Source of the DNA: Planctomycetota bacterium
GTDB lineage: Bacteria; Planctomycetota; Planctomycetia; Pirellulales; Pirellulaceae
Length of the DNA stretch: 37,719 bases
Reading direction: 5' to 3'
Assembly (NCBI GenBank): GCA_024276655.1
Contig: JAJRWU010000135.1
Location: forward strand, 1 to 37,719
Both the position numbers and the translations under genes were made by a program. Below the pieces are notes generated by a model. That model made no database searches. It was not told the DNA's origin and saw only the letters and a list, made by a program, of their open reading frames with translations. Below, in pieces: positions 261 through 37,719 of the stretch. Every line of letters begins with the position of its first letter. The first letter of the stretch is position 1.

Positions 261-545
261 AAACGGTCATTCTCGCGTGGGTGGGAACCCAAAAAAACTC
301 ACGGACGCCCGTTGCGTGCGGGTAAGTTATTTTCCGCCGCTCGCCTGGCGGGTTCGGCTGTGCGGGCTGTAGGGGTATTGCCTTTTTTTGTGTATCGGCC
401 GGGTGTCTGCTTTTGCCGTCAAGATTTCCCGCCACGCCCGCCACTCATACGCAACCTATGTTTTCAAGCGGCATTTTGAATGCTCTTGGGCGCGAAATCG
501 AACCCAACCCACAAAAACCAACACCGAACCGCAAGGAACAGAAAC

Positions 546-1100
546 ATGAAAGGGGTCGTGTTTACCGAGTTCGTCGAGATGCTGGAGGAGACATTCTCGC
601 CGGAGTTAGTCGACGAGTTGTTCGGCGCGATCTCACTGCCCTCGAAAGGCGTCTATACTTCGGTCGGCACGTACGACCACAACGAACTGGTATCGCTGGT
701 TGTGGAATTGTCGAGACGAACCGACACCGCGGTTCCCAGCTTGATTCACGCCTTTGGCAAACACCTGGGAAAACAGTTCGTCGCCAAGTATCCGGCGTTT
801 TTCGACGCCGTTGAAGATGCGTTCGGTTTTTTCGAGCAGATCGACGGATACGTTCACGTCGAAGTTCGCAAACTGTACCCCGACGCCGAACTGCCGCGAT
901 TCCACACCAGGAGAGTCGGCGAACACGGGTTGGAAGTGGTTTACGAATCGGAGCGACCCTTCGCAGATTTGGCGCACGGCCTTATCGAGAACACGATCGA
1001 GCACTATGGCGAATCAATCGAGATCGAACGCCGGCCAACCGACAACGGCGAAGTGTTCGTACTATGGCAGAAATGCGAGACGCCGTCATGCCAGGGTTAG
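546..1100 (+). CDS. hnoX: H-NOX (haem nitric oxide/oxygen binding) sensor domain protein
   Basis: The N-terminus MKGVVFTEFVEMLEE is typical of H-NOX proteins. A Y-x-S-x-R haem-propionate motif (YESER) and a candidate proximal His (GYVHVEV) are present. ATG at 546 is preceded by AAGGA. It is coupled to a downstream histidine kinase. The ORF-track start at 480 adds 22 low-complexity residues and is less likely. Confidence 0.8.
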   Translation: MKGVVFTEFVEMLEETFSPELVDELFGAISLPSKGVYTSVGTYDHNELVSLVVELSRRTDTAVPSLIHAFGKHLGKQFVAKYPAFFDAVEDAFGFFEQIDGYVHVEVRKLYPDAELPRFHTRRVGEHGLEVVYESERPFADLAHGLIENTIEHYGESIEIERRPTDNGEVFVLWQKCETPSCQG

Positions 1101-2431
1101 ATGGCGTACTAAGCCGTTGGGAGCGGGAGCGGGAGGCTCGAAAGCAGGCCGAGCACCTCTTGGAACAGAAGAGCCGCGACCTGTATGAGAGTAAACAGCA
1201 ACTCGAAGATGCTCTCGCCAACGCTGAGTTGGCGACACGGGCGAAGAGTGAGTTTCTGGCGAACATGAGCCATGAAATTCGCACGCCAATGACCGCCATT
1301 CTCGGCTTCACCGATATTCTGCTCGGCAGTTTGGTTGAACCAGAAGACATCGCCGCCGCCCTGACCGTGAAAGAGAACGGCGAGTATCTGATCAACCTCA
1401 TCAACGACATTCTCGATTTATCCAAAATTGAAGCCGGGAAGATCGAAGTCGAACAAATCGAATGCTCCCCTCATGAAATTGCGGCCGACGTATCGTCGTT
1501 GATGAGAGTACGGGCGTCGGCCAAGGGTTTGCAGTTGAAAGTTCATTTCGACGACGCTCTTCCTGAAACGATCCAGAGCGATCCCACTCGGCTGCGGCAG
1601 ATTCTCATCAACCTCGTTGGTAATGCGATCAAGTTCACCGAAACGGGCTCGGTTCTGATTGTTGCTCACTTGCTGAACGCTCCGGGCGCGGAGCCGAAAC
1701 TGCAATTCGACGTGATCGACACCGGAATCGGGATCGCCGAGGAAAAAATCGAAAAGCTCTTCCAGCCGTTCACGCAAGCCGACAACTCAACAACTCGGCG
1801 GTTTGGCGGAACCGGCTTGGGGCTCACGATCAGCAAACGCATGGCGGAACTCCTCGGCGGCAAGGTTTCCATATCCAGTACGGTCGGCGAGGGAAGCACT
1901 TTTTCGGTCACGGTTGCCACGGGCCCGCTGGAGGACGTACGACAGATTCGCGACGCCGTTCCACCGGCTTGTAACAAAGTGGTTACAAAACATTCGTTAG
2001 ACCACGAAACCGAAACTCCGCTGCGCGATCGTCGGGTGTTGCTGGCCGAAGACGGGCCCGATAATCAACGGCTGATTGGCTTCATCTTGAAGCAGGAGGG
2101 CGCGGAGGTCACGCTGGCTGACAACGGGCAGATTGCCTTCGATCTCGCCGCCGCCGCTCGCGCGGAGGAACACCCTTTCGATGTGATCTTGATGGACATG
2201 CAAATGCCGGTGCTCGACGGCTACGCGGCCACGCGCCGATTGCGAAACGAAGGGCACTCCGGCCCGATTCTCGCCCTGACCGCTCATGCGATGGCCGGTG
2301 ATCGAGAGAAGTGCCTCAACGCCGGTTGCGATGACTTCCTCACCAAGCCGATTGACCGCCAGAAGTTGATCGCAACGGTGGCTGATTTCGCCTCGCGGCA
2401 AGAGACTCTTGCAGCGAACGATGCTCGGTAG
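1064..2431 (+). CDS. Hybrid sensor histidine kinase (HisKA + HATPase_c + C-terminal receiver), partner of H-NOX
   Basis: H-box FLANMSHEIRTPMTAILGF; N, G1 and G2 boxes (NLVGNAIKFT, DTGIGI, GGTGLGLTIS); a receiver domain with DVILMDMQMPVLDGY. It overlaps the H-NOX stop, so the two are probably translationally coupled. The start could be 1064, 1073 or 1088. Confidence 0.85.
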   Translation: MAEMRDAVMPGLDGVLSRWEREREARKQAEHLLEQKSRDLYESKQQLEDALANAELATRAKSEFLANMSHEIRTPMTAILGFTDILLGSLVEPEDIAAALTVKENGEYLINLINDILDLSKIEAGKIEVEQIECSPHEIAADVSSLMRVRASAKGLQLKVHFDDALPETIQSDPTRLRQILINLVGNAIKFTETGSVLIVAHLLNAPGAEPKLQFDVIDTGIGIAEEKIEKLFQPFTQADNSTTRRFGGTGLGLTISKRMAELLGGKVSISSTVGEGSTFSVTVATGPLEDVRQIRDAVPPACNKVVTKHSLDHETETPLRDRRVLLAEDGPDNQRLIGFILKQEGAEVTLADNGQIAFDLAAAARAEEHPFDVILMDMQMPVLDGYAATRRLRNEGHSGPILALTAHAMAGDREKCLNAGCDDFLTKPIDRQKLIATVADFASRQETLAANDAR

Positions 2432-5288: not shown

Positions 5289-6191
5289 TCACTCGGCGTC
5301 TGGGGCTCGAACCACGACCACTTCGTCGATATTGGGCAGGAGTCCGCCATCGACGGTGCGGCTCACCGATTGCCATTTGAATTGGTTGTCGTCAACGTAC
5401 GAGATAATGTTCACCGACGACGCGCTCCCTCCGTCGGGCAATGTTCCCGTCACGGTAACATACCAATGATTCTCTTTCTTGGTCCAACGTCCTTCGGCGA
5501 AGCCGCCGTCTGAATCGAACACCCAAGAGCGAATTTGCTTGGCTGCCGGGTCCCAGCCGATGACCTGCATGCCGGCCAAATCGATTCGGTTTTGAATCGA
5601 GACGGTAAACGACCGCGTGATGAAGTTTTTGTTTCGGGTCCACTCGCAGGTCGTCTCGATGCGGGCTTGGTCGTCGGCGTCGACCCAGTGGCCGATCATC
5701 CACTCCAATTGTTTGAGTTGCTCGTAGTGCGACGAAACAACCGGGACATCTTCTTCCGTGACGCGGTCCAAAAGCCACTGGCCATCGCGTTTGACATGAA
5801 TCGCGGTGTAGGTGCTTTCTTGCGGCTGGCCATCGGCGGTGATCAATTTGGCGACGCCGTTTTCCACCGCGACGCCGGGAGAAATGAACTGAATCGATTG
5901 CACCTCCACGGCCAACTTGGTCTCCTTCAGTTCCGAGAGAATGGCTTCGAACTCTTTCTCGATCGCTTCCCGTCCCTCGACCTGACTTCCCGTGAGCGGG
6001 TTGATATAAACCGCATCGGGCGACCACCGCGCCGCCAGCGCCTGCGCATCATGAGCGTTGAATGCGGCGGTGTACGATTCGATCGCCTTTTCAATCGCGG
6101 CCCTGTCGGCCGCTTGATCGGCGGCGGATGTAGTTCTCTCGCCGCAGATCATGGTTGCGCAAACGAGCAGGGCGCCCACAAGGTATTTCAT
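5289..6191 (-). CDS. Secreted protein with tandem NTF2-like (SnoaL/DUF4440-type) domains
   Basis: Signal peptide. Two repeats of the NTF2-like pattern (AAIEKAIESYTAAFNAHDAQALAARWSPDAVY... and ...HWVDADDQARIETTCEWTRNKNFI...). Confidence 0.5.
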   Translation of the reverse strand: MKYLVGALLVCATMICGERTTSAADQAADRAAIEKAIESYTAAFNAHDAQALAARWSPDAVYINPLTGSQVEGREAIEKEFEAILSELKETKLAVEVQSIQFISPGVAVENGVAKLITADGQPQESTYTAIHVKRDGQWLLDRVTEEDVPVVSSHYEQLKQLEWMIGHWVDADDQARIETTCEWTRNKNFITRSFTVSIQNRIDLAGMQVIGWDPAAKQIRSWVFDSDGGFAEGRWTKKENHWYVTVTGTLPDGGSASSVNIISYVDDNQFKWQSVSRTVDGGLLPNIDEVVVVRAPDAE

Positions 6192-6317
6192 CGAAGGTCT
6201 CTCTTTCTTTTGTCGAATGTTTGAATTGGTAAGGATCGTTCGAGAATTAGTTGTCCGACTTTGCTTGTACGATGGCCTTGGAAGGCCGTCGTGCAGCGGT
6301 AATTTCCCGCCCGATGT

Positions 6318-14895: not shown

Positions 14896-15228
14896 TTGAC
14901 CGAACAGCAGTGGTCGTTGATTCAGGCCTTGTTGCCCTCGCCAAAGAATCGCCAAGGAGGACGGCCCCGCACCGTTGCGATGCGGGAAGTCGTCAACGCA
15001 ATCATGTATCTCAATCGCACAGGCTGCCAGTGGGACATGCCGCCTCACGATTTGCGCCCTAAAATAAAAGTACTGTCTACGATTACTTCGCACAGTGTGG
15101 CGCGACGACGGAACCAGGACCGCCATTGTCACGGCGCTTCGCGAGCAGATTCGCGTTCAGGAAGGTCGCCTATCGACCCCCAGCGCCGCCTGCATCGACA
15201 GCCAATCCATCAAGACCACCGGCTAATG
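14896..15228 (+). pseudogene. IS5-family (DUF4096 N-terminal type) transposase remnant, frameshifted and truncated
   Basis: MTEQQWSLIQALLPSPKNRQGGRPRTVAMREVVNAIMYLNRTGCQWDMPPHDL matches the IS5/IS4-family transposase N-terminus. Two frameshifts are needed to read TVYDYF and WRDDGT...SAACIDSQSIKTTG. The DDE domain is absent. It ends abutting a copy of the TIR-type repeat. Confidence 0.7.
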
Positions 15229-15253
15229 GCTGGCAAGCCTCCGGCTTGGCGGG
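15214..15253 (+). repeat. Family-2 repeat end (GACCACCGGCTAATGGCTGGCAAGCCTCCGGCTTGGCGGG) at the transposase remnant
   Basis: Homologous to the inverted ends of the element at 33233-33435, to 20085-20151 (reverse complement) and to 166-191. The homology continues about 45 bp further, shared with rc 20030-20084. Confidence 0.6.
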
Positions 15254-15285
15254 AATTTCAACACACCATTGCACGGAATATCTCT

Positions 15286-15341
15286 TGGACAGCGCCTAAC
15301 TGGACAGCTCCTAACTGGACAGCTCCTAACTGGACAGCGCC
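15286..15341. repeat. 15-bp tandem repeat TGGACAGCKCCTAAC, about 3.7 copies
   Basis: Seen directly. Encodes the NWTAPNWTAPNWTAP run in a spurious ORF. Confidence 0.8.
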
Positions 15342-15429
15342 AGGTTCTCCGTTTTTCAGATATGTTGTGGTCCAGTTTGACGTGCTATCACAACATGCTG
15401 TGGTTTTTCTGGAAGATGGCGCTGTTCAG

Positions 15430-15699
15430 CTAAGCCGCCAGCCGCACCGGCTTTTGTTCCTCGAACAAATTCACGGTGCGCAACATGGCGCCGTCTTCGT
15501 CGTAGAATTGCAGCAGGCCGACGTCGATCATCCACATGGCCATGAAATCGCCGCAGCGGTAGGAATGAGCGCGAACCTTGCCGCTATCGACCAGGAATGT
15601 CTCGGCGACGCCGCCGGGCATTGCCACATCGGCGCCCAATTCGAGAAAGGTGCGGGCGACAATCAGTTTCACTTCGTGAGAAAAAGGGGCGACTCTCAT
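15430..15699 (-). CDS. Hypothetical small protein (89 aa)
   Basis: ORF with an ATG start. A small palindrome GCAATATCCTTATTGC overlaps the start region. No known motif. Confidence 0.35.
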   Translation of the reverse strand: MRVAPFSHEVKLIVARTFLELGADVAMPGGVAETFLVDSGKVRAHSYRCGDFMAMWMIDVGLLQFYDEDGAMLRTVNLFEEQKPVRLAA

Positions 15700-16140
15700 T
15701 TCGCAATATCCTTATTGCATAATGGCTGGCGGCGTCCTGCCGCGAATAGCCTGGTAGTGTAGCAACAAGGCGTTTCCACACCTAGAACAGTTGTGCATCG
15801 CCTACGAGTGTTATCGTCGGTGCAACGGTCGGTCATCGCGAGAATGCGTTTGCCCGTCTCAAAACGGAGAATTGATCCATTTTCCGCGCTAAGACGGCTG
15901 AAAACCGTGTTGAACGCGAAGGATACGCAAAACAGGAGCAACAGGAAGGATTTGCGGAATTCAAAAGATAGTGCAGTTGAAGAGGATTGCCGGCCGTGCG
16001 GCATCTGTTCGGCGCGTCGCTGAAGCAGGCCGATGGCGGGATGCCGCCTCAGGCGTTATGATGTTGGCGTACCTCCGAAAGGAAGGCCGGCCAGGGTAGG
16101 CCGGCCTCTATCCCGCTCCCCCTCGAATCTCAACAGAATC

Positions 16141-19600: not shown

Positions 19601-19743
19601 ACGACCTGCCGCACGACGAACTGGAGTTGCGTAAACTTGCCTACCTCCTAGGCTACGCCAACGCCCAAGACCTGCTCACCGGCTGCGGTGCCTATTTAGA
19701 AGAGAACCGCCGCCGCTTCGAGCGATTTTTTGGAACAGCGTGA
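16642..19743 (+). CDS. glnE: Bifunctional glutamine synthetase adenylyltransferase / adenylyl-removing enzyme
   Basis: Two nucleotidyltransferase domains with LGKLGGRELNYSSDIDLIFL and MGKLGGREPNYHSDLDVVFLY. Size (1033 aa) and architecture fit GlnE. Confidence 0.85.
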   Translation: METQTLLEYLDSFARAKPWLQSLGVADLERAHANLVSFSRSGLTTDLAAVLADQLAEHLPGVSDPDMALNNLDRYLAAARNPLSVGALFERDAEALPTLLQILSSSQYLADVLVRDPAGFELVRLTDGAPLAKPVLVDELCAEVIMLDDEAAALLALRRFKHRETMRIAFGDIVRRQNIETVTRQISYLAEAICEAALRFVYKKLAAKRGQPRSDDGSPARFVVLALGKLGGRELNYSSDIDLIFLCEEAGSTDGARPVANSEFFERLARGLIKLLSESTELGAAYRTDMRLRPDGRQGPIVIDWKAALRYYDVKGRTWERQAFVKARPIAGDLELGEMFLSQLEPWVYRRYLNRADITGIKALKRRIEKRNLTEGGEFTDVKTGQGGIRDIEFAIQFLLLLNGGDLQKIRTGNTLEAIERLEQAGCLTMQERTLLTRNYEFLRRVEHRLQIMFDLQTHSLPSHADELRKIALRLGGVDTEHTTALEAFQEEYRTKTAENRKILDHLLHDAFGGEEKIAQEVDLVLDPDPPEHIIQKVLAPYGFSDVPAAYVNLMALADEKIPFLSTRRCRHFLASIAPQLLEAISASPDPDSALLNLSAVSDSVGGKGVLWELFSFNAPSLLLYVQLCATSPYLSHILTSNPGMIDELMDSLVLAKLPSREALERNLAELCQGAEDIEPILHSFKSSQHLRVGVRDILGKDDVQTAHQTLSDIAQVCLAQVARIEYEKLTTRFGRPMLEGGHDPCELIILAMGKLGGREPNYHSDLDVVFLYEAEGQTQPLGAQRADRITTNQHFFSQLAQKITKVITKRGPYGRLYELDARLRPTGKSGALAVSLPEFSRYFSDRRGQLWERQALCKARVVYGSANVQAITMQAVRQAITTQPWTDACRQKIHDMRMRLEETAARGNLKRGRGGTVDIEFIVQMLQLKYARQSPEVLQPGTLAALDQLLKANHISADDHEYLRKAYRFLRSVEARLRLMDTSARHDLPHDELELRKLAYLLGYANAQDLLTGCGAYLEENRRRFERFFGTA

Positions 19744-20084
19744 GAGAGCCGCCGCAAAGTGGCTTAGCCCACTCGCCGCCCGATAAAGCCGCGACGGCGA
19801 TCATGCCTTTCTCGTCGTTCACCGAAATCCGCGCCACGTACACGAGTGTGGGAACATTCCGTAAGACACCCTACCGCAGTGAACTGACCGATGCGAGAAT
19901 CCGCTCGCCATTCATGCATACAATCGGCTTGATACCCTTCGGCATCGCATGGCTCGCGTTCTCTCCGCTGGTGTTGTTGCTTCAAATGTTGCCGCAGCGC
20001 AACTCGAAAACGCATGTGGCTGATTAGCAAGGCAAGACGCCTGCCCAGGATCTGTTCCGTGCAACGGTGTTAGGAGATCTCCGC

Positions 20085-20200
20085 CAAGCCGGAGGCTTTG
20101 ACAGCCATGAGCCGGTGGTCGAGCACGGCGAACACCACCGGTAGGCCAACGCAACGAACGATGCATCCCGGCGGGGATGTCAGTGCCCTTGGAATAAGAA
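20085..20200 (-). repeat. Family-2 repeat, partial copy (one end plus the internal CCGGTGGT...ACCACCGG hairpin)
   Basis: The reverse complement aligns to 15214-15300. The internal part aligns to 33238-33350 (CATGAGCCGGTGGTCGAGCACGGCGAACACCACCGG ... CATCCCGGCGGGGATG). Confidence 0.55.
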
Positions 20201-20500
20201 AAGGGCTGTTTTCCGGGGCCGCCGACAGCGCACCGTCCTTCCCGCGTGGTCCTCTATCTCGACGTTCTTCAGTTCGAGGCTCACGCGTTGGGAGTCGGAG
20301 AACAAAACGGCAACCGTTCACGGCGCTGCGAGAAATTGCGATAACGATCTATCCCACCGATCAAACACCCATGCCAATTGCAAACCGCACCGCAAGGTTC
20401 GCTCGCTCTTTCGGCAGCGTGGTAGTCGGTATTGTGGGCGGCGGCGGCGGCGGTTACTATCTCCGCCGAAGTGTTAAGCATCATTTCCCCTGAGGCCGCC

Positions 20501-21436
20501 ATGTTTCAGCAAACCATTCCCGACGAGCACGTTCTGGGGCAGTACATTCCGTTGCACTACCATTACAACATGCTGCTGGATCAGGCTCGGATGTCGAGTT
20601 TTCGCGATGCGATCGAGTATCTGACGCCGCCGGGCGCCAAAGTCTTGGATTTGGGCGGCGGAACGGGCGTGTTATCGCACTTTGCAGCCAGCAAGGCGGG
20701 CCATGTTTGGTGCGTGGAACGAAACCCCGAGTTGGTTCGGACCGCCCGCCGGCTGATGCGGCACAATCCGTTTGGGCATCGGGTTGAGGTCATCCAGGCT
20801 GACGCAATGGAGTATCTTCCGCCCGAGCCGGTCGATGTTGTCATTTGTGAAATGTTGCACACCGGACTGATGCGCGAAAAGCAAATTCAGGTAATCGGCT
20901 CATTTCAAGAGCGTTATCTGGCGCACTTCGGCGGTCCGTTGCCGCGTTTCGTTCCAGAGGCTTCGTTGCTTGCGGTGCAGCCGGTGGAGCAGCCGTTTGA
21001 ATTTTCGGGGTTTTCGGCGCCCATTCCATTTTTTCAAGACTCGGGCGGCAACCATGAGCAAACGCGAGGGCTCTGCCAACCGCTCGTATACGCCGCGGTT
21101 GAATACGATCGTGCGTTGCCCGAGCGGTTCGAGGGTCGGACCAAGTTCTCCATGGAACGCAGCGGCCAATTGAACGCTTTACGGTTTATTACCAAGAACC
21201 TGCTGGCCTTTCAGGAGTCGGAAGGCTCGGCCATTGAGTGGTCGAACCAGTACCTAGTGGTTCCTCTCCGGCAAACGTTCGACGTTGCCGCGGGCGCCGA
21301 GATTGTGGTCGAATTCTCTTACGGCGCTGGCTGCCAGTTGGAAGAGTTGCTGGATTCAGCCCAAGTGATTCCGCTTTCGCAATGGGGAGCGATTCCCTCA
21401 GACCGCCACACCGCCGCCGAGCGCCGGGCAGCGTAA
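20501..21436 (+). CDS. Protein arginine N-methyltransferase (PRMT)-like class I SAM-dependent methyltransferase
   Basis: PRMT pre-motif I signature YIPLHYHYNMLLDQARMSSFRDAI (YF..Y..H..ML.D..R...Y..AI). Motif I VLDLGGGTGVLS. Double-E loop region VVICEMLHTGLMRE. ATG at 20501. Confidence 0.65.
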   Translation: MFQQTIPDEHVLGQYIPLHYHYNMLLDQARMSSFRDAIEYLTPPGAKVLDLGGGTGVLSHFAASKAGHVWCVERNPELVRTARRLMRHNPFGHRVEVIQADAMEYLPPEPVDVVICEMLHTGLMREKQIQVIGSFQERYLAHFGGPLPRFVPEASLLAVQPVEQPFEFSGFSAPIPFFQDSGGNHEQTRGLCQPLVYAAVEYDRALPERFEGRTKFSMERSGQLNALRFITKNLLAFQESEGSAIEWSNQYLVVPLRQTFDVAAGAEIVVEFSYGAGCQLEELLDSAQVIPLSQWGAIPSDRHTAAERRAA

Positions 21437-21483
21437 AAAGCCGTGGAGTAATGGTTACCGATTATGATGCGGAAAAGCCCGGC

Positions 21484-21512
21484 ATTTTCAAAATGCCGGG
21501 CTCATGATTCGA
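21484..21512. terminator. Palindromic hairpin terminator, family copy 3, shared by the convergent PRMT-like and csrA genes
   Basis: AAAAGCCCGGCATTTTCAAAATGCCGGGCT. Confidence 0.6.
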
Positions 21513-21539
21513 CCAATAAATTTCGCTCGGTACCTACTA

Positions 21540-21719
21540 TTACGAATCGGCTTGCTCCAACCGCCTGATGGCTTCGTAGATTTCGTGGCGATGCACCGGG
21601 ATATCTTTCGGCGCCTCAATGCCGAGGCGCACGTTGTCTCCTCGAATCTCAACAATCGTGATCACGATCTGATCGCCGATCATGATCTTTTGATCGAGTT
21701 TTCGGGAAAGCACCAACAC
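21540..21719 (-). CDS. csrA: Carbon storage regulator CsrA (59 aa, GTG start)
   Basis: The translation VLVLSRKLDQKIMIGDQIVITIVEIRGDNVRLGIEAPKDIPVHRHEIYEAIRRLEQADS aligns along its full length to E. coli CsrA ([48 protein letters not shown]). AGGAGA RBS 8 nt upstream of GTG. Missed by the ORF track because it is under 60 aa with a non-ATG start; the annotated + ORF 21504..21821 is its antisense artefact. Confidence 0.8.
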   Translation of the reverse strand: MLVLSRKLDQKIMIGDQIVITIVEIRGDNVRLGIEAPKDIPVHRHEIYEAIRRLEQADS

Positions 21720-22110
21720 GGGTTGAATCTCCTGGTTATTTCTCTCGTCGCTCAGAAAACAGACGGCTTCGTCTCATTTTTCGGTAGGAGTCGCGGCGGG
21801 GAAACCGCTCTGGTGGAGTGAGCCGGCGTAGCGGCGGGCGTGTAGTCTGGCGTTGAGACGCCATGGCTCCACAAAGCCTTTGCTAGGCGTATGTTACGGC
21901 GTAAGCGAGGATCCGCCCCAGACCGAGTTCCCCCTAGAATTCGCCGCTAAAATGTGCTGAAAACCGATTTTTGCGGCAAGACAGTTTGGCCGGGCGTCGC
22001 TATTTGCATGTTTGTTTCCGAGTATGTGGCCCATTTCACAGTGTGGCGCGGCGAACTTCGGCTAGAACGGGAGGGTGACGTCTCGCTCCGATTGCTGAAA
22101 GAAATCAGAC

Positions 22111-22686
22111 ATGCTTACATCGCTGGTGAAGATCTCGATCGGGCTGTTCGCCTGGATGGGCGGCATTTATGGCGTTCTACAGATCGGAAATCTGCACACC
22201 CGTTGGGATCATGTCGCTTGCGGTCCCTGGGGCTGCGGGCCCACGGTTCCCGCAATGACAGCCTACCATCTCTTCTGGTTGATGCTGCTTCTTCCGCCGG
22301 CGGCAATGGTGGCTCGTGTTCTGCCGGAAGGGCTTCGCGACAAGGCGGGCTGGGTTTTGATGGCCCTGGGCGCGGGAATCGCCTTGGCGGTGGTGGCCTG
22401 GCAAGCTGTGTATTGGTTGCCAATCGGCGGCGAGAACGCGGCCTCCTATTTTGTGCAACGCTGCTTGTTTTCGATGGCCACGCTGATCGATGTCCCGATG
22501 GCGCAGATCTTCCTGGCCGGAATGCTGTTTTGGGCTTGGCCTTCACCGAAATGCGCAAAGTCGCCGTTTGTCGACACTGCGGCAACTGATTCTGCGGCAA
22601 CAGAAGCCCAGCCAGATGTTTCCGAAGAGGCGCCGGGCGTATCCAATCCCACGCCACGCGACTCTGGATCCCACGCCCTCTATTAA
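22111..22686 (+). CDS. Hypothetical integral membrane protein
   Basis: Several hydrophobic segments and a Trp/Cys-rich loop (WDHVACGPWGCGP). No known motif. A repeat element copy sits at its stop. Confidence 0.45.
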   Translation: MLTSLVKISIGLFAWMGGIYGVLQIGNLHTRWDHVACGPWGCGPTVPAMTAYHLFWLMLLLPPAAMVARVLPEGLRDKAGWVLMALGAGIALAVVAWQAVYWLPIGGENAASYFVQRCLFSMATLIDVPMAQIFLAGMLFWAWPSPKCAKSPFVDTAATDSAATEAQPDVSEEAPGVSNPTPRDSGSHALY

Positions 22687-33435: not shown

Positions 33436-33952
33436 TAACGAACTCTTGTCTGCAACGAACGCCTTCTTGCTTCAATCGGCGGCGCGAATCTGGCGTCCTG
33501 GTGAAAAAAATCTGGCGGGTTGTTGAATGACTTAGGGGAAGTCCCGAAATAAGATCCCTGAGCCGATGAGCGCTAGCTCACGGTTTACAGCATTCTCGGA
33601 GAACCGGACGCTAACGTGTTCCGGCTGATCTGCGCGGCGTGTTTGGCAAGAATAACCCGGATTATCACCCCGCTCAGTCCGAGACGAAAATACGGAAGGC
33701 TGCGCGTCGTTTCCAGAAATAAATTTTGATGGCTTTTTGACCGAATTCCGCTAGAATCACCCCTGCGCCACCCTTCCTTCGGGTGGGGCCATCTGGCCAA
33801 GGACAATAACGGGCTTTTTTTTACGAATAGCCTCTTGAATAGTTAGCAAACGGGTCCACATTTCTGTTGACGCCTTGCCGCGACACAATCTTCTGACGTT
33901 GAAGATTTTGGCTCGTTGCGGCCAGCGCGGTCAAACCATTAAGGAGGATGCC

Positions 33953-37467: not shown

Positions 37468-37620
37468 TTGTACACGTTCACGGGTTTGGAACCGCCGGAC
37501 AGATTGCTATCGCAACTCCACGCGCCTTGGGCGGAAATCCAGACGTCGCTCGGAGGTTTCTGGGCGGACATTTCAACGGTCGAGTAGAGGAGGAGCGTCA
37601 ATGACGCCCCTCCCCCCTCA

Positions 37621-37655
<35 letters not shown>

Positions 37656-37719
37656 ACCAAAGGCATTTCGTCGGTCGGCACACGCAGACTCAGAGGTCGC
37701 CACGGAGCTTCTTTAGTCC

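What the first reader, a model, noticed from the sequence alone, without database searches (positions are those of the whole stretch)
20501..21719. PRMT-like arginine methyltransferase convergent with an unannotated csrA
A eukaryote-type protein arginine methyltransferase signature (YF..Y..H..ML.D..R, motif I, double-E-loop region) is rare in bacteria. Immediately downstream and convergent is a 59-codon GTG-start csrA, which the ORF track missed and instead reported as an antisense 105-aa ORF. The two genes share a bidirectional palindromic terminator. CsrA is a global post-transcriptional regulator that in many bacteria is paired with FliW, and no fliW is nearby.
Basis: partly seen in the sequence, partly recalled or inferred. 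Interest (0 to 1): 0.55.

Follow-up and report, generated by a model that had tools for sequence, protein, structure and literature searches.

The report
PRMT-fold methyltransferase beside ordinary csrA
Both genes are real, a bacterial enzyme built like eukaryotic protein arginine methyltransferases and a textbook 59-codon csrA, but the enzyme family is widespread in bacteria and the two genes are neighbours only by chance in this one planctomycete lineage.

Summary
The sequence observation holds. 20501-21436(+) encodes a 311-aa SAM methyltransferase. 21540-21719(-) encodes a canonical 59-aa GTG-start CsrA. A strong GC-rich palindrome (21477-21501) lies between them.

The family is not rare. 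It has 2878 protein clusters and occurs in at least 581 species genomes across several phyla, and JGI already labels members PRMT1-like. The csrA adjacency is seen only in the 97%-identical sister MAG among 80 loci. No neighbour is conserved across lineages. Four related csrA loci lack both FliW and this enzyme.

csrA was missed only because it is one codon below a 60-aa ORF cutoff. The hairpin has a U-tract only on the csrA side.

Verdict: two unrelated ordinary genes, and an uncharacterised but database-recognised bacterial PRMT-fold family. Low to moderate interest.

The parts
20501..21436 (+). CDS of a 311-aa SAM-dependent methyltransferase with the two-domain PRMT architecture: Rossmann domain (~1-150) plus all-beta C-terminal domain (~154-291), then a disordered tail ending in RRAA.
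21477..21501 (.). GC-rich palindromic hairpin between the two convergent stop codons. It is a likely intrinsic terminator for csrA (UUUUCC follows it on the - strand) and at best a weaker stop for the methyltransferase transcript (no U-run on the + strand).
   Evidence: Folding of 21437-21539 on both strands: -36.0 and -33.2 kcal/mol, z -3.6 and -3.1. Sequence read. The 7-bp GC core GCCCGGC/GCCGGGC and the flanking GGAAAA are kept in the sister MAG, while the AT-rich extension of the stem is not. Not called by the consensus terminator scan.
21540..21719 (-). csrA: 59-aa GTG-start carbon storage regulator / translational repressor.
   Evidence: Pfam PF02599 91.1 bits over model positions 1-52 of 53; NCBIfam NF002469 84.8 bits (cutoff 73) and TIGR00202 79.2 bits (cutoff 70.1). 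Gapless alignment to E. coli CsrA 1y00 residues 1-53, E 6e-15. 1247 homolog clusters. 4 synonymous and 0 nonsynonymous differences against L002.
21729..21733 (-). Shine-Dalgarno AGGAG of csrA, 9 nt upstream of the GTG. It contains a GGA, the core of a CsrA binding site, so autoregulation is possible but untested.
   Evidence: Sequence read directly; conserved in L002.
21504..21821 (+). Spurious 105-aa ORF antisense to csrA. It is not a gene and is listed only because the finding mentions it.
   Evidence: Listed. Frameshifted into several stops in the sister MAG, while the csrA frame shows only synonymous changes.

Best explanation
Two functionally unrelated, independently transcribed genes of a Planctomycetaceae chromosome happen to converge here.

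(1) The 311-aa protein belongs to a widespread, highly conserved bacterial family that has the full catalytic-core architecture of eukaryotic protein arginine methyltransferases: an N-terminal helix that closes over SAM, a Rossmann domain with motif I, post-I acid and motif II, a double-E loop, and a C-terminal beta-barrel. Inferred mechanism: it binds SAM through GGGTG, E73 and R30, and uses the two invariant glutamates E117 and E126 to hold a guanidinium (or similar cationic nitrogen) for N-methylation, most likely of an arginine in a conserved protein substrate. The THW-loop histidine is replaced by Asp, Glu or Gln, so the fine chemistry and product type may differ from type I PRMTs.

(2) csrA encodes a canonical short CsrA that should bind GGA motifs in mRNA leaders. 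In this clade it is a stand-alone gene without a linked FliW.

(3) The shared palindrome terminates csrA (hairpin plus U-tract) and may also slow or stop the methyltransferase transcript.

Shown: gene reality, family and fold assignment, motif conservation, lack of conserved synteny. Inferred: the substrate (arginine), terminator function, CsrA activity.

For: Not rare, and already labelled: 2878 clusters, with JGI names 'type I protein arginine methyltransferase' and 'protein arginine N-methyltransferase 1'. At least 581 species genomes carry it, including Planctomycetaceae, Massilia, Janthinobacterium, Nitrosomonas, Methylobacter, Gallionella and Nitrospinota.

No linkage: csrA is adjacent only in L002 (97% identical enzyme) and lies ~5 kb away in L046, out of 80 genome loci. 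No neighbour family is shared across lineages. Four csrA relatives have neither this enzyme nor FliW nearby.

csrA. Hairpin. No FliW or flagellar genes in the window.
Against: No curated PRMT model is passed: Pfam PRMT5 scores 20.1 against a 22.9 cutoff, and no PRMT C-terminal model matched at E<=1. The THW histidine, described as important for catalysis and substrate binding in PRMTs (PMC12153873), is absent: the loop is [IV][DEQ]W in 102 of the 107 homologs in which the pattern was located, and VHW in 1. The ~30-residue segment where PRMTs carry a helical dimerisation arm is predicted non-helical. No member of this bacterial family was found to be biochemically characterised in the searchable literature, so arginine as substrate is inference from fold and motifs only. 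The structure is a prediction. Terminator function is untested, and the consensus scan did not call it.
Confidence: 0.75

Rival explanations
1. The enzyme has the PRMT fold but does not methylate protein arginine. It would methylate a small cationic metabolite (free arginine or another guanidino compound, or a polyamine) or another macromolecule, using the double-E pocket simply as a cation-binding site.
For: The THW histidine is replaced in almost all members. No helical dimerisation arm is predicted. Identity between phyla is very high (52-58% between Planctomycetaceae and Proteobacteria), which fits a universal small-molecule or highly conserved substrate. No partner or substrate gene is conserved next to it. 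JGI labels are split between 'PRMT' and 'predicted RNA methylase'.
Confidence: 0.3
2. The methyltransferase and csrA form a functional pair. For example, the enzyme methylates CsrA, whose RNA binding depends on arginines, or the convergent arrangement couples their expression by transcriptional interference.
For: The two genes are only 103 nt apart, convergent, and share one hairpin. Eukaryotic PRMTs typically target RNA-binding proteins (general knowledge).
Against: The adjacency is found in only 1 of 80 genome loci, and that one is the same lineage at 97% identity. Nine other Planctomycetaceae loci lack it. Four csrA relatives lack the enzyme nearby. In the sister MAG a 167-bp inverted-repeat element sits between the two genes without disturbing either, which argues against a constrained shared regulatory spacer.
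Confidence: 0.04
3. The enzyme is just a generic class I methyltransferase or a PrmA-type ribosomal protein L11 methyltransferase, and the PRMT resemblance is superficial.
For: The best Pfam hits are generic (Methyltransf_25 45.5 bits, Methyltransf_31 41.7 bits). Pfam PrmA scores 26.7 bits, above its cutoff of 22.
Confidence: 0.03

Closest known systems
Eukaryotic type I-III protein arginine methyltransferase catalytic cores (PRMT2, PRMT6, PRMT3, CARM1, PRMT7)
   Different: Only ~17-23% identity. The T and H of the THW loop are replaced ([IV][DEQ]W). The YFxxY motif is only approximate. The segment equivalent to the dimerisation arm is predicted non-helical. There are no N-terminal accessory domains. 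Planctomycete members carry a clade-specific C-terminal RRAA tail. No curated PRMT HMM is passed, and activity is untested.
PrmA (ribosomal protein L11 methyltransferase)
   Same: A class I Rossmann SAM-binding domain, with a weak Pfam PrmA hit (26.7 bits).
CsrA/RsmA/RsmE family (E. coli CsrA 1y00; P. fluorescens RsmE 2jpp)
   Same: Gapless alignment over residues 1-53. By direct reading, L2, L4, R6, V42, R44 and I47 are identical to E. coli CsrA, with conservative changes R7K and V40I. Its short length (59 aa) resembles the gammaproteobacterial proteins.
   Different: It is from a planctomycete and starts with GTG. No CsrB/RsmZ-like GGA-rich RNA is in the window and no FliW is nearby, so its antagonist is unknown.
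FliW-CsrA partner-switching module (Bacillus, Campylobacter and others)
   Same: The CsrA component.
   Different: There is no fliW or flagellar gene within the 37.7-kb window, or within +/-6 kb of four related csrA genes. The rest of the genome could not be searched.

Membership tests
PRMT (protein arginine methyltransferase) | Motif I, VLD/VGxGxG (motif list from PMC12925635) | tested here: met
   VLDLGGGTG at residues 48-56. G52-G56 are invariant in A1, and LGGGTG is present in 111 of 120 homologs.
PRMT (protein arginine methyltransferase) | Post-I motif, V/I-x-G/A-x-D/E | tested here: inconclusive
   V69-W-C71-V-E73. The acidic E73 is invariant and aligns with the PRMT post-I acid, but position 3 is an invariant Cys rather than Gly or Ala.
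PRMT (protein arginine methyltransferase) | Motif II, E/K/VDII | tested here: met
   V111-D-V-V-I115, nearly invariant. It aligns with VDVII in AtPRMT4.2 and PRMT3.
PRMT (protein arginine methyltransferase) | Double-E loop, SExMGxxLxxExM, with two glutamates 8 residues apart | tested here: met
   C116-E117-M-L-H-T-G-L-M-R-E126-K-Q. Both Glu are invariant with the same spacing, and they align with the double-E glutamates of TbPRMT7, AtPRMT4.2 and PRMT3. The pattern CEM.H.{5}E is present in 119 of 120 homologs. The flanking S, M and G positions differ.
PRMT (protein arginine methyltransferase) | Motif III, LK/xxGxxxP | tested here: met
   L140-A-H-F-G144-G-P-L-P148. G144 is nearly invariant and P148 invariant.
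PRMT (protein arginine methyltransferase) | THW loop, THWxQ | tested here: not met
   The loop is I-E-W247-S-N-Q here. Only the Trp is invariant. Across the homologs the loop is IDW 42, IEW 17, VDW 15, VEW 11, VQW 11 and VHW 1. W247 aligns with the W of THW in AtPRMT4.2 (second stretch).
PRMT (protein arginine methyltransferase) | N-terminal YFxxY motif (type I) and the SAM-closing helix | tested here: inconclusive
   The helix motif H21..M24 L25.D27..R30 is invariant and aligns with PRMTs. YFxxY is only approximated, as Y15-I-P-L-H19 here and F-I-P-L-H in the family consensus.
PRMT (protein arginine methyltransferase) | C-terminal beta-barrel domain packed against the Rossmann domain | tested here: met
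PRMT (protein arginine methyltransferase) | Helical dimerisation arm inserted in the beta-barrel, and a homodimeric active form | tested here: inconclusive
   An insertion of similar length (residues ~164-194) is present but is predicted without helices. The oligomeric state was not modelled.
PRMT (protein arginine methyltransferase) | Passing a curated PRMT sequence model | tested here: not met
   Pfam PRMT5 (PF05185) scores 20.1 bits against a 22.9 cutoff. No other PRMT-specific model was listed at E<=1, and NCBIfam gave no PRMT model.
PRMT (protein arginine methyltransferase) | SAM-dependent methylation of protein arginine guanidino nitrogen | not testable with these tools
   This needs biochemistry or mass spectrometry. 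No characterised bacterial member was found in six literature searches.
CsrA / RsmA (PF02599) | Passing the curated family models | tested here: met
   Pfam 91.1 bits (cutoff 27). NCBIfam NF002469 84.8 bits (cutoff 73) and TIGR00202 79.2 bits (cutoff 70.1).
CsrA / RsmA (PF02599) | Conserved N-terminal and beta5 residues that contact RNA in E. coli CsrA (L2, L4, R6, R7, V40, V42, R44, I47; residue list from my own knowledge of published alanine scanning) | tested here: met
   The gapless alignment to 1y00 shows L2, L4, R6, V42, R44 and I47 identical, with R7K and V40I as conservative changes.
CsrA / RsmA (PF02599) | Reading frame conserved in relatives | tested here: met
   4 synonymous and 0 nonsynonymous differences against L002, where the antisense ORF is broken. 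There are 1247 homolog clusters at up to 81% identity.
CsrA / RsmA (PF02599) | Binding of GGA motifs and translational repression | not testable with these tools
   Inferred from family membership only.
FliW-CsrA module | fliW (PF02623) adjacent to csrA, usually within flagellar genes | tested here: not met
   No FliW or flagellar family appears among the 30 main ORFs of the window or among the called genes within +/-6 kb of four related csrA genes. The rest of the genome was not searchable.
PrmA (L11 methyltransferase) | Passing the NCBIfam PrmA equivalog models | tested here: not met
Rho-independent (intrinsic) terminator | GC-rich hairpin immediately followed by a U-tract | tested here: inconclusive
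   The hairpin is strong on both strands. On the - strand UUUUCC follows it, giving only 4 U. The + strand has no U-run. The consensus scan requires at least 5 T in 8 and did not call it.

The most novel reading that the evidence does not exclude
The conserved bacterial family to which this gene belongs may be a bona fide prokaryotic protein arginine methyltransferase, a modification writer generally treated as eukaryotic. On this reading it would have its own variant active-site loop ([IV][DEQ]W in place of THW). In Planctomycetaceae its conserved, disordered C-terminal ...RRAA tail would act as a built-in pseudo-substrate or automethylation site, or else as a degron, that regulates the enzyme.
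Probability: 0.2. Interest if true: 0.6.

Novelty: new member of a known kind. Interest (0 to 1): 0.25.

Why it matters
As it stands, this is a correction. The PRMT-like gene is one of thousands of bacterial homologs that annotation pipelines already flag. csrA is canonical, and the juxtaposition carries no functional signal.

The residual value lies in the family, not this locus. It is a highly conserved PRMT-fold enzyme (52-58% identity across phyla), present in cultivable genera such as Massilia, Janthinobacterium and Nitrosomonas, and I could find no biochemical characterisation of it. If it methylates protein arginine, it would give bacteria a dedicated arginine-methylation writer and a tractable system for studying the origin of eukaryotic PRMTs. 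The planctomycete-specific RRAA tail would then be a simple handle on its regulation.

Tried and rejected
1. Conserved gene neighbourhood of the methyltransferase. ORFs within +/-4 kb in 80 genome loci were clustered by all-against-all BLASTP. Only lineage-restricted neighbours appeared (at most 19 loci), so there is no substrate or partner clue.

2. csrA linkage. tblastn of csrA, glnE and the other window neighbours against the 81 loci found them only in the sister MAG, apart from one csrA ~5 kb away in L046.

3. CsrB/RsmZ-like decoy RNA. The Rfam gathering scan of the whole window returned only a group II intron domain. GGA and A(N)GGA density in 200-nt windows never exceeded the shuffled controls. 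The csrA leader at 21720-22110 has about the expected number of GGA by eye.

4. Literature on prokaryotic PRMT homologs, or on a PRMT-like polyamine methyltransferase I vaguely recalled from Geobacter: six searches and one paper checked for relevant passages. Nothing relevant was found, so I make no claim about such an enzyme. Two further reviews supplied only the PRMT motif definitions.

5. The AFDB50 fold search, which would have given UniProt names and taxa, was not available on the machine.

6. The exact protein is on record only on a 1.3-kb contig, so its own genome context beyond the window could not be extended.

7. The MITE-like insert of the sister MAG was searched for in the window. 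Only a 41-nt partial match at 88% identity appeared at 33600-33640, with no inverted repeat there. Dropped.

8. PrmA, CpaM and other NCBIfam equivalogs were considered and rejected on their cutoffs.

Full report
**What is in the sequence**

The window (37.7 kb, 58% GC) comes from a Planctomycetaceae genome. The closest public DNA is contig QIKY01000166.1 of the MAG 'Planctomycetaceae bacterium SZUA-33' (locus L002). It encodes the same glnE, methyltransferase, csrA and downstream membrane-protein genes at 88-98% amino-acid identity.

The finding's two ORFs both exist as described.
- 20501-21436(+) is a 311-aa ATG-start ORF.
- 21540-21719(-) is a 59-aa GTG-start ORF. An AGGAG sits 9 nt upstream of its start.
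- Between the two stop codons lie 103 nt, containing the palindrome GCCCGGCATTTT-C-AAAATGCCGGGC at 21477-21501.

**csrA**

The 59-aa protein passes every curated CsrA threshold.
- Pfam PF02599 scores 91.1 bits against a cutoff of 27.
- NCBIfam NF002469 scores 84.8 bits against 73, and TIGR00202 scores 79.2 against 70.1.
- It aligns without gaps to E. coli CsrA residues 1-53. The positions I know to matter for RNA binding are identical or conservatively replaced: L2, L4, R6, K7 (R in E. coli), I40 (V in E. coli), V42, R44, I47.

Against the sister MAG the csrA frame shows 4 synonymous and 0 nonsynonymous differences. The 105-aa antisense ORF (21504-21821, +) is broken there by a 1-bp indel.

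The gene was 'missed' only because 59 aa is one residue below the usual 60-aa ORF-listing threshold. JGI called it in the sister MAG (P0121, 58 aa, starting one codon later).

**The methyltransferase**

In Pfam and NCBIfam the protein matches only generic class I SAM-methyltransferase models, and only over residues ~18-136.
- Pfam: Methyltransf_25 45.5 bits, PrmA 26.7 bits, and PRMT5 20.1 bits, which is below its 22.9 cutoff.
- NCBIfam: the best hit, CpaM, scores 46.8 bits against a cutoff of 180. The PrmA models score 23-24 bits against cutoffs of 183-269.

That test is uninformative, however, because the generic models cover only the Rossmann half.

Against all PDB sequences, 59 of the best 60 matches are eukaryotic PRMTs (E 1.9e-12 and weaker). 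The first non-PRMT, CbiT, is at E 5.9e-5. With a 30-sequence family profile, all 60 listed hits are PRMTs (E down to 1.2e-20).

An AlphaFold2 model built on that alignment is confident (pLDDT 87.7, pTM 0.83). It shows a Rossmann domain followed by an all-beta domain at residues 154-291.
- Foldseek against the PDB returns only PRMT catalytic cores in its top 50, with TM 0.60-0.72 over ~300-350 alignment columns.

The protein therefore has the PRMT architecture, not the PrmA or generic one.

**Motif-by-motif membership**

I used the six PRMT motifs as listed in PMC12925635.

| Motif | State in this family |
|---|---|
| Motif I | Present: VLDLGGGTG |
| Post-I | Acid present and invariant (E73), but position 3 is Cys |
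| Motif II | Present: VDVVI |
| Double-E loop | Both glutamates (E117, E126) invariant with the canonical spacing |
| Motif III | Present: L140...G144...P148 |
| THW loop | Only the Trp (W247) retained |

In the 120 listed homologs the THW-equivalent loop is [IV][DEQ]W, with a single VHW. [quoted passage not shown]

The YFxxY motif is only approximated. The SAM-closing helix motif H..ML.D..R is invariant. The ~30-residue segment where PRMTs carry a helical dimerisation arm is predicted without helices.

The honest statement is that the protein works like, and is folded like, a PRMT. It fails one defining sequence motif and passes no curated PRMT model, and its substrate is untested.

**Is it rare?**

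No. The homolog search returned 2878 clusters at E<=1e-3, and the 120 best are all at 52-97% identity over 82-100% of the query. JGI names several of them 'type I protein arginine methyltransferase', 'protein arginine N-methyltransferase 1' or 'predicted RNA methylase'. NCBI names them 'methyltransferase domain-containing protein'.

They span Planctomycetaceae, Massilia, Janthinobacterium, Pseudoduganella, Nitrosomonas, Methylobacter, Methyloversatilis, Gallionella, Sulfuricella, Chromatiaceae, Nitrospinota, Thermodesulfovibrionia and Elusimicrobia. Cross-phylum identity of 52-58% indicates strong constraint, horizontal spread, or both.

I found no paper characterising a bacterial member. The searchable library excludes many subscription-journal papers, so this absence is not proof.

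**Is the pairing with csrA meaningful?**

No.
- Among 80 genome loci carrying the methyltransferase with up to 6 kb of flank, csrA is adjacent only in L002, the same lineage. It lies ~5 kb away in one other Planctomycetaceae locus (L046) and is absent from the rest.
- Clustering all neighbouring ORFs found no family shared across lineages.
- Conversely, four close csrA relatives on long contigs have neither this enzyme nor FliW within 6 kb. These include Polystyrenella longa Pla110. Two lie beside an HU gene, and one lies inside a phage-like block.
- In the sister MAG a 167-bp element has inserted between the methyltransferase stop and the hairpin. It has perfect 12-nt terminal inverted repeats and an internal 24-nt palindrome. 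The spacer is evidently not under tight joint constraint.

**FliW and decoy RNAs**

None of the 30 main ORFs in the window matches FliW or any flagellar family. The neighbours are GlnE, a TPR protein, DUF4416, glycosyltransferases, an O-antigen-ligase-like protein and others.

Rfam finds only a group II intron domain at 37579-37657(-). No 200-nt stretch is enriched for GGA or A(N)GGA beyond the shuffled controls. The antagonist of this CsrA remains unknown, and the rest of the genome could not be searched.

**The hairpin**

The spacer folds strongly on both strands: -36.0 and -33.2 kcal/mol, z -3.6 and -3.1. Only the minus (csrA) strand has a U-run (UUUUCC) after the stem. The plus strand continues UCAUGAUU. 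The consensus terminator scan called neither strand.

The 7-bp GC core and the flanking GGAAAA are kept in the sister MAG, while the AT part of the stem is not. I read this as an intrinsic terminator for csrA that may also impede the convergent transcript. 'Bidirectional' is plausible but only half supported.

**Mechanism, and how sure**

Most likely (0.75) these are two independent genes. The enzyme binds SAM through motif I, E73 and R30 under the N-terminal helix, and positions a guanidinium between E117 and E126 for N-methylation. Protein arginine is the most probable acceptor given the retained beta-barrel.

The altered THW loop and the absence of a predicted helical arm leave about a 0.3 chance that the true acceptor is something else. 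A functional methyltransferase-CsrA pair (0.04) and a PrmA or generic identity (0.03) are effectively excluded.

**Verdict**

csrA is already known biology. The methyltransferase is a new member of a database-recognised but apparently uncharacterised bacterial PRMT-fold family. Interest is low to moderate (0.25).

The one feature worth following is family-level: whether these are true bacterial arginine methyltransferases. A related question is what the Planctomycetaceae-specific C-terminal RR[AST]A tail does. It is present in 9 of 10 planctomycete loci against 3 of 71 others, one of which is L001, the short contig carrying the window's own protein.

Noticed in passing
window 21398-21436 (C-terminus of the methyltransferase); L002, L004, L006, L007, L016, L037, L045, L046, L056: The enzyme ends in a disordered linker followed by ...RRAA. 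An RR[AST]A C-terminus is present in 9 of 10 Planctomycetaceae loci. It occurs in only 3 of 71 other loci, one of which (L001) is the short contig carrying the window's own protein. 30 of the 120 top homologs end exactly in RRAA. A conserved Arg-Arg at the very end of an arginine-methyltransferase-like enzyme could be a pseudo-substrate or automethylation site, or a degron. The AF2 tail has pLDDT below 50, so no structural hint is available.
   Followed up: partly
L002 6958-7124 (corresponds to an insertion at about window 21457): The sister MAG carries a 167-bp insertion between the methyltransferase stop and the hairpin. It has perfect 12-nt terminal inverted repeats (CCGGATTATTCA / TGAATAATCCGG) and an internal perfect 24-nt palindrome, so it is MITE-like. 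The window has only a 41-nt partial match at 88% identity, at 33600-33640.
   Followed up: partly
L085 (JGI metagenome contig Ga0672857_0000058), csrA at 6001-6198: A close csrA homolog (P0177, 72% identity) sits in a co-directional block of small genes with RusA, a DnaB-like helicase and an N6/N4 DNA methyltransferase. This looks like a phage- or prophage-borne CsrA.
   Followed up: no
L082 5368-6204 and L083 6001-6542: In two planctomycete-type csrA loci, including Polystyrenella longa, csrA lies directly next to an HU-family (Bac_DNA_binding) gene. This may be a recurrent pairing. It is not present in the window.
   Followed up: no
window 37579-37657 (-): An Rfam group II catalytic intron domain hit (RF00029, 52.7 bits against a gathering score of 40) lies at the very end of the window. 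Any intron-encoded protein would lie outside or at the window edge.
   Followed up: no
window 480-2431 (+): An H-NOX (haem-NO-binding) gene overlaps the start of a hybrid histidine kinase with a receiver domain. This is a typical NO-sensing two-gene module.
   Followed up: no
window 14896-15762 (+): An ORF has an IS4/IS5-family transposase N-terminal domain (DUF4096, 63 bits) but no recognisable catalytic domain hit. It may be a degraded insertion sequence just upstream of glnE.
   Followed up: no
window 19744-20500: A ~750-nt stretch lies between glnE and the methyltransferase, and its ORFs (19740-20027, 20098-20493) hit no family. The glycine-rich ORF segment just upstream of the methyltransferase start is in a different frame in the sister MAG, so it is probably non-coding leader or promoter DNA.
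   Followed up: partly
window 21950-22110: The distal part of the divergent intergenic region between csrA and the membrane-protein ORF at 22111-22686 is almost invariant between the window and the sister MAG. The proximal csrA leader (21830-21950) is more variable. With only two sequences at this distance, nothing can be concluded.
   Followed up: no
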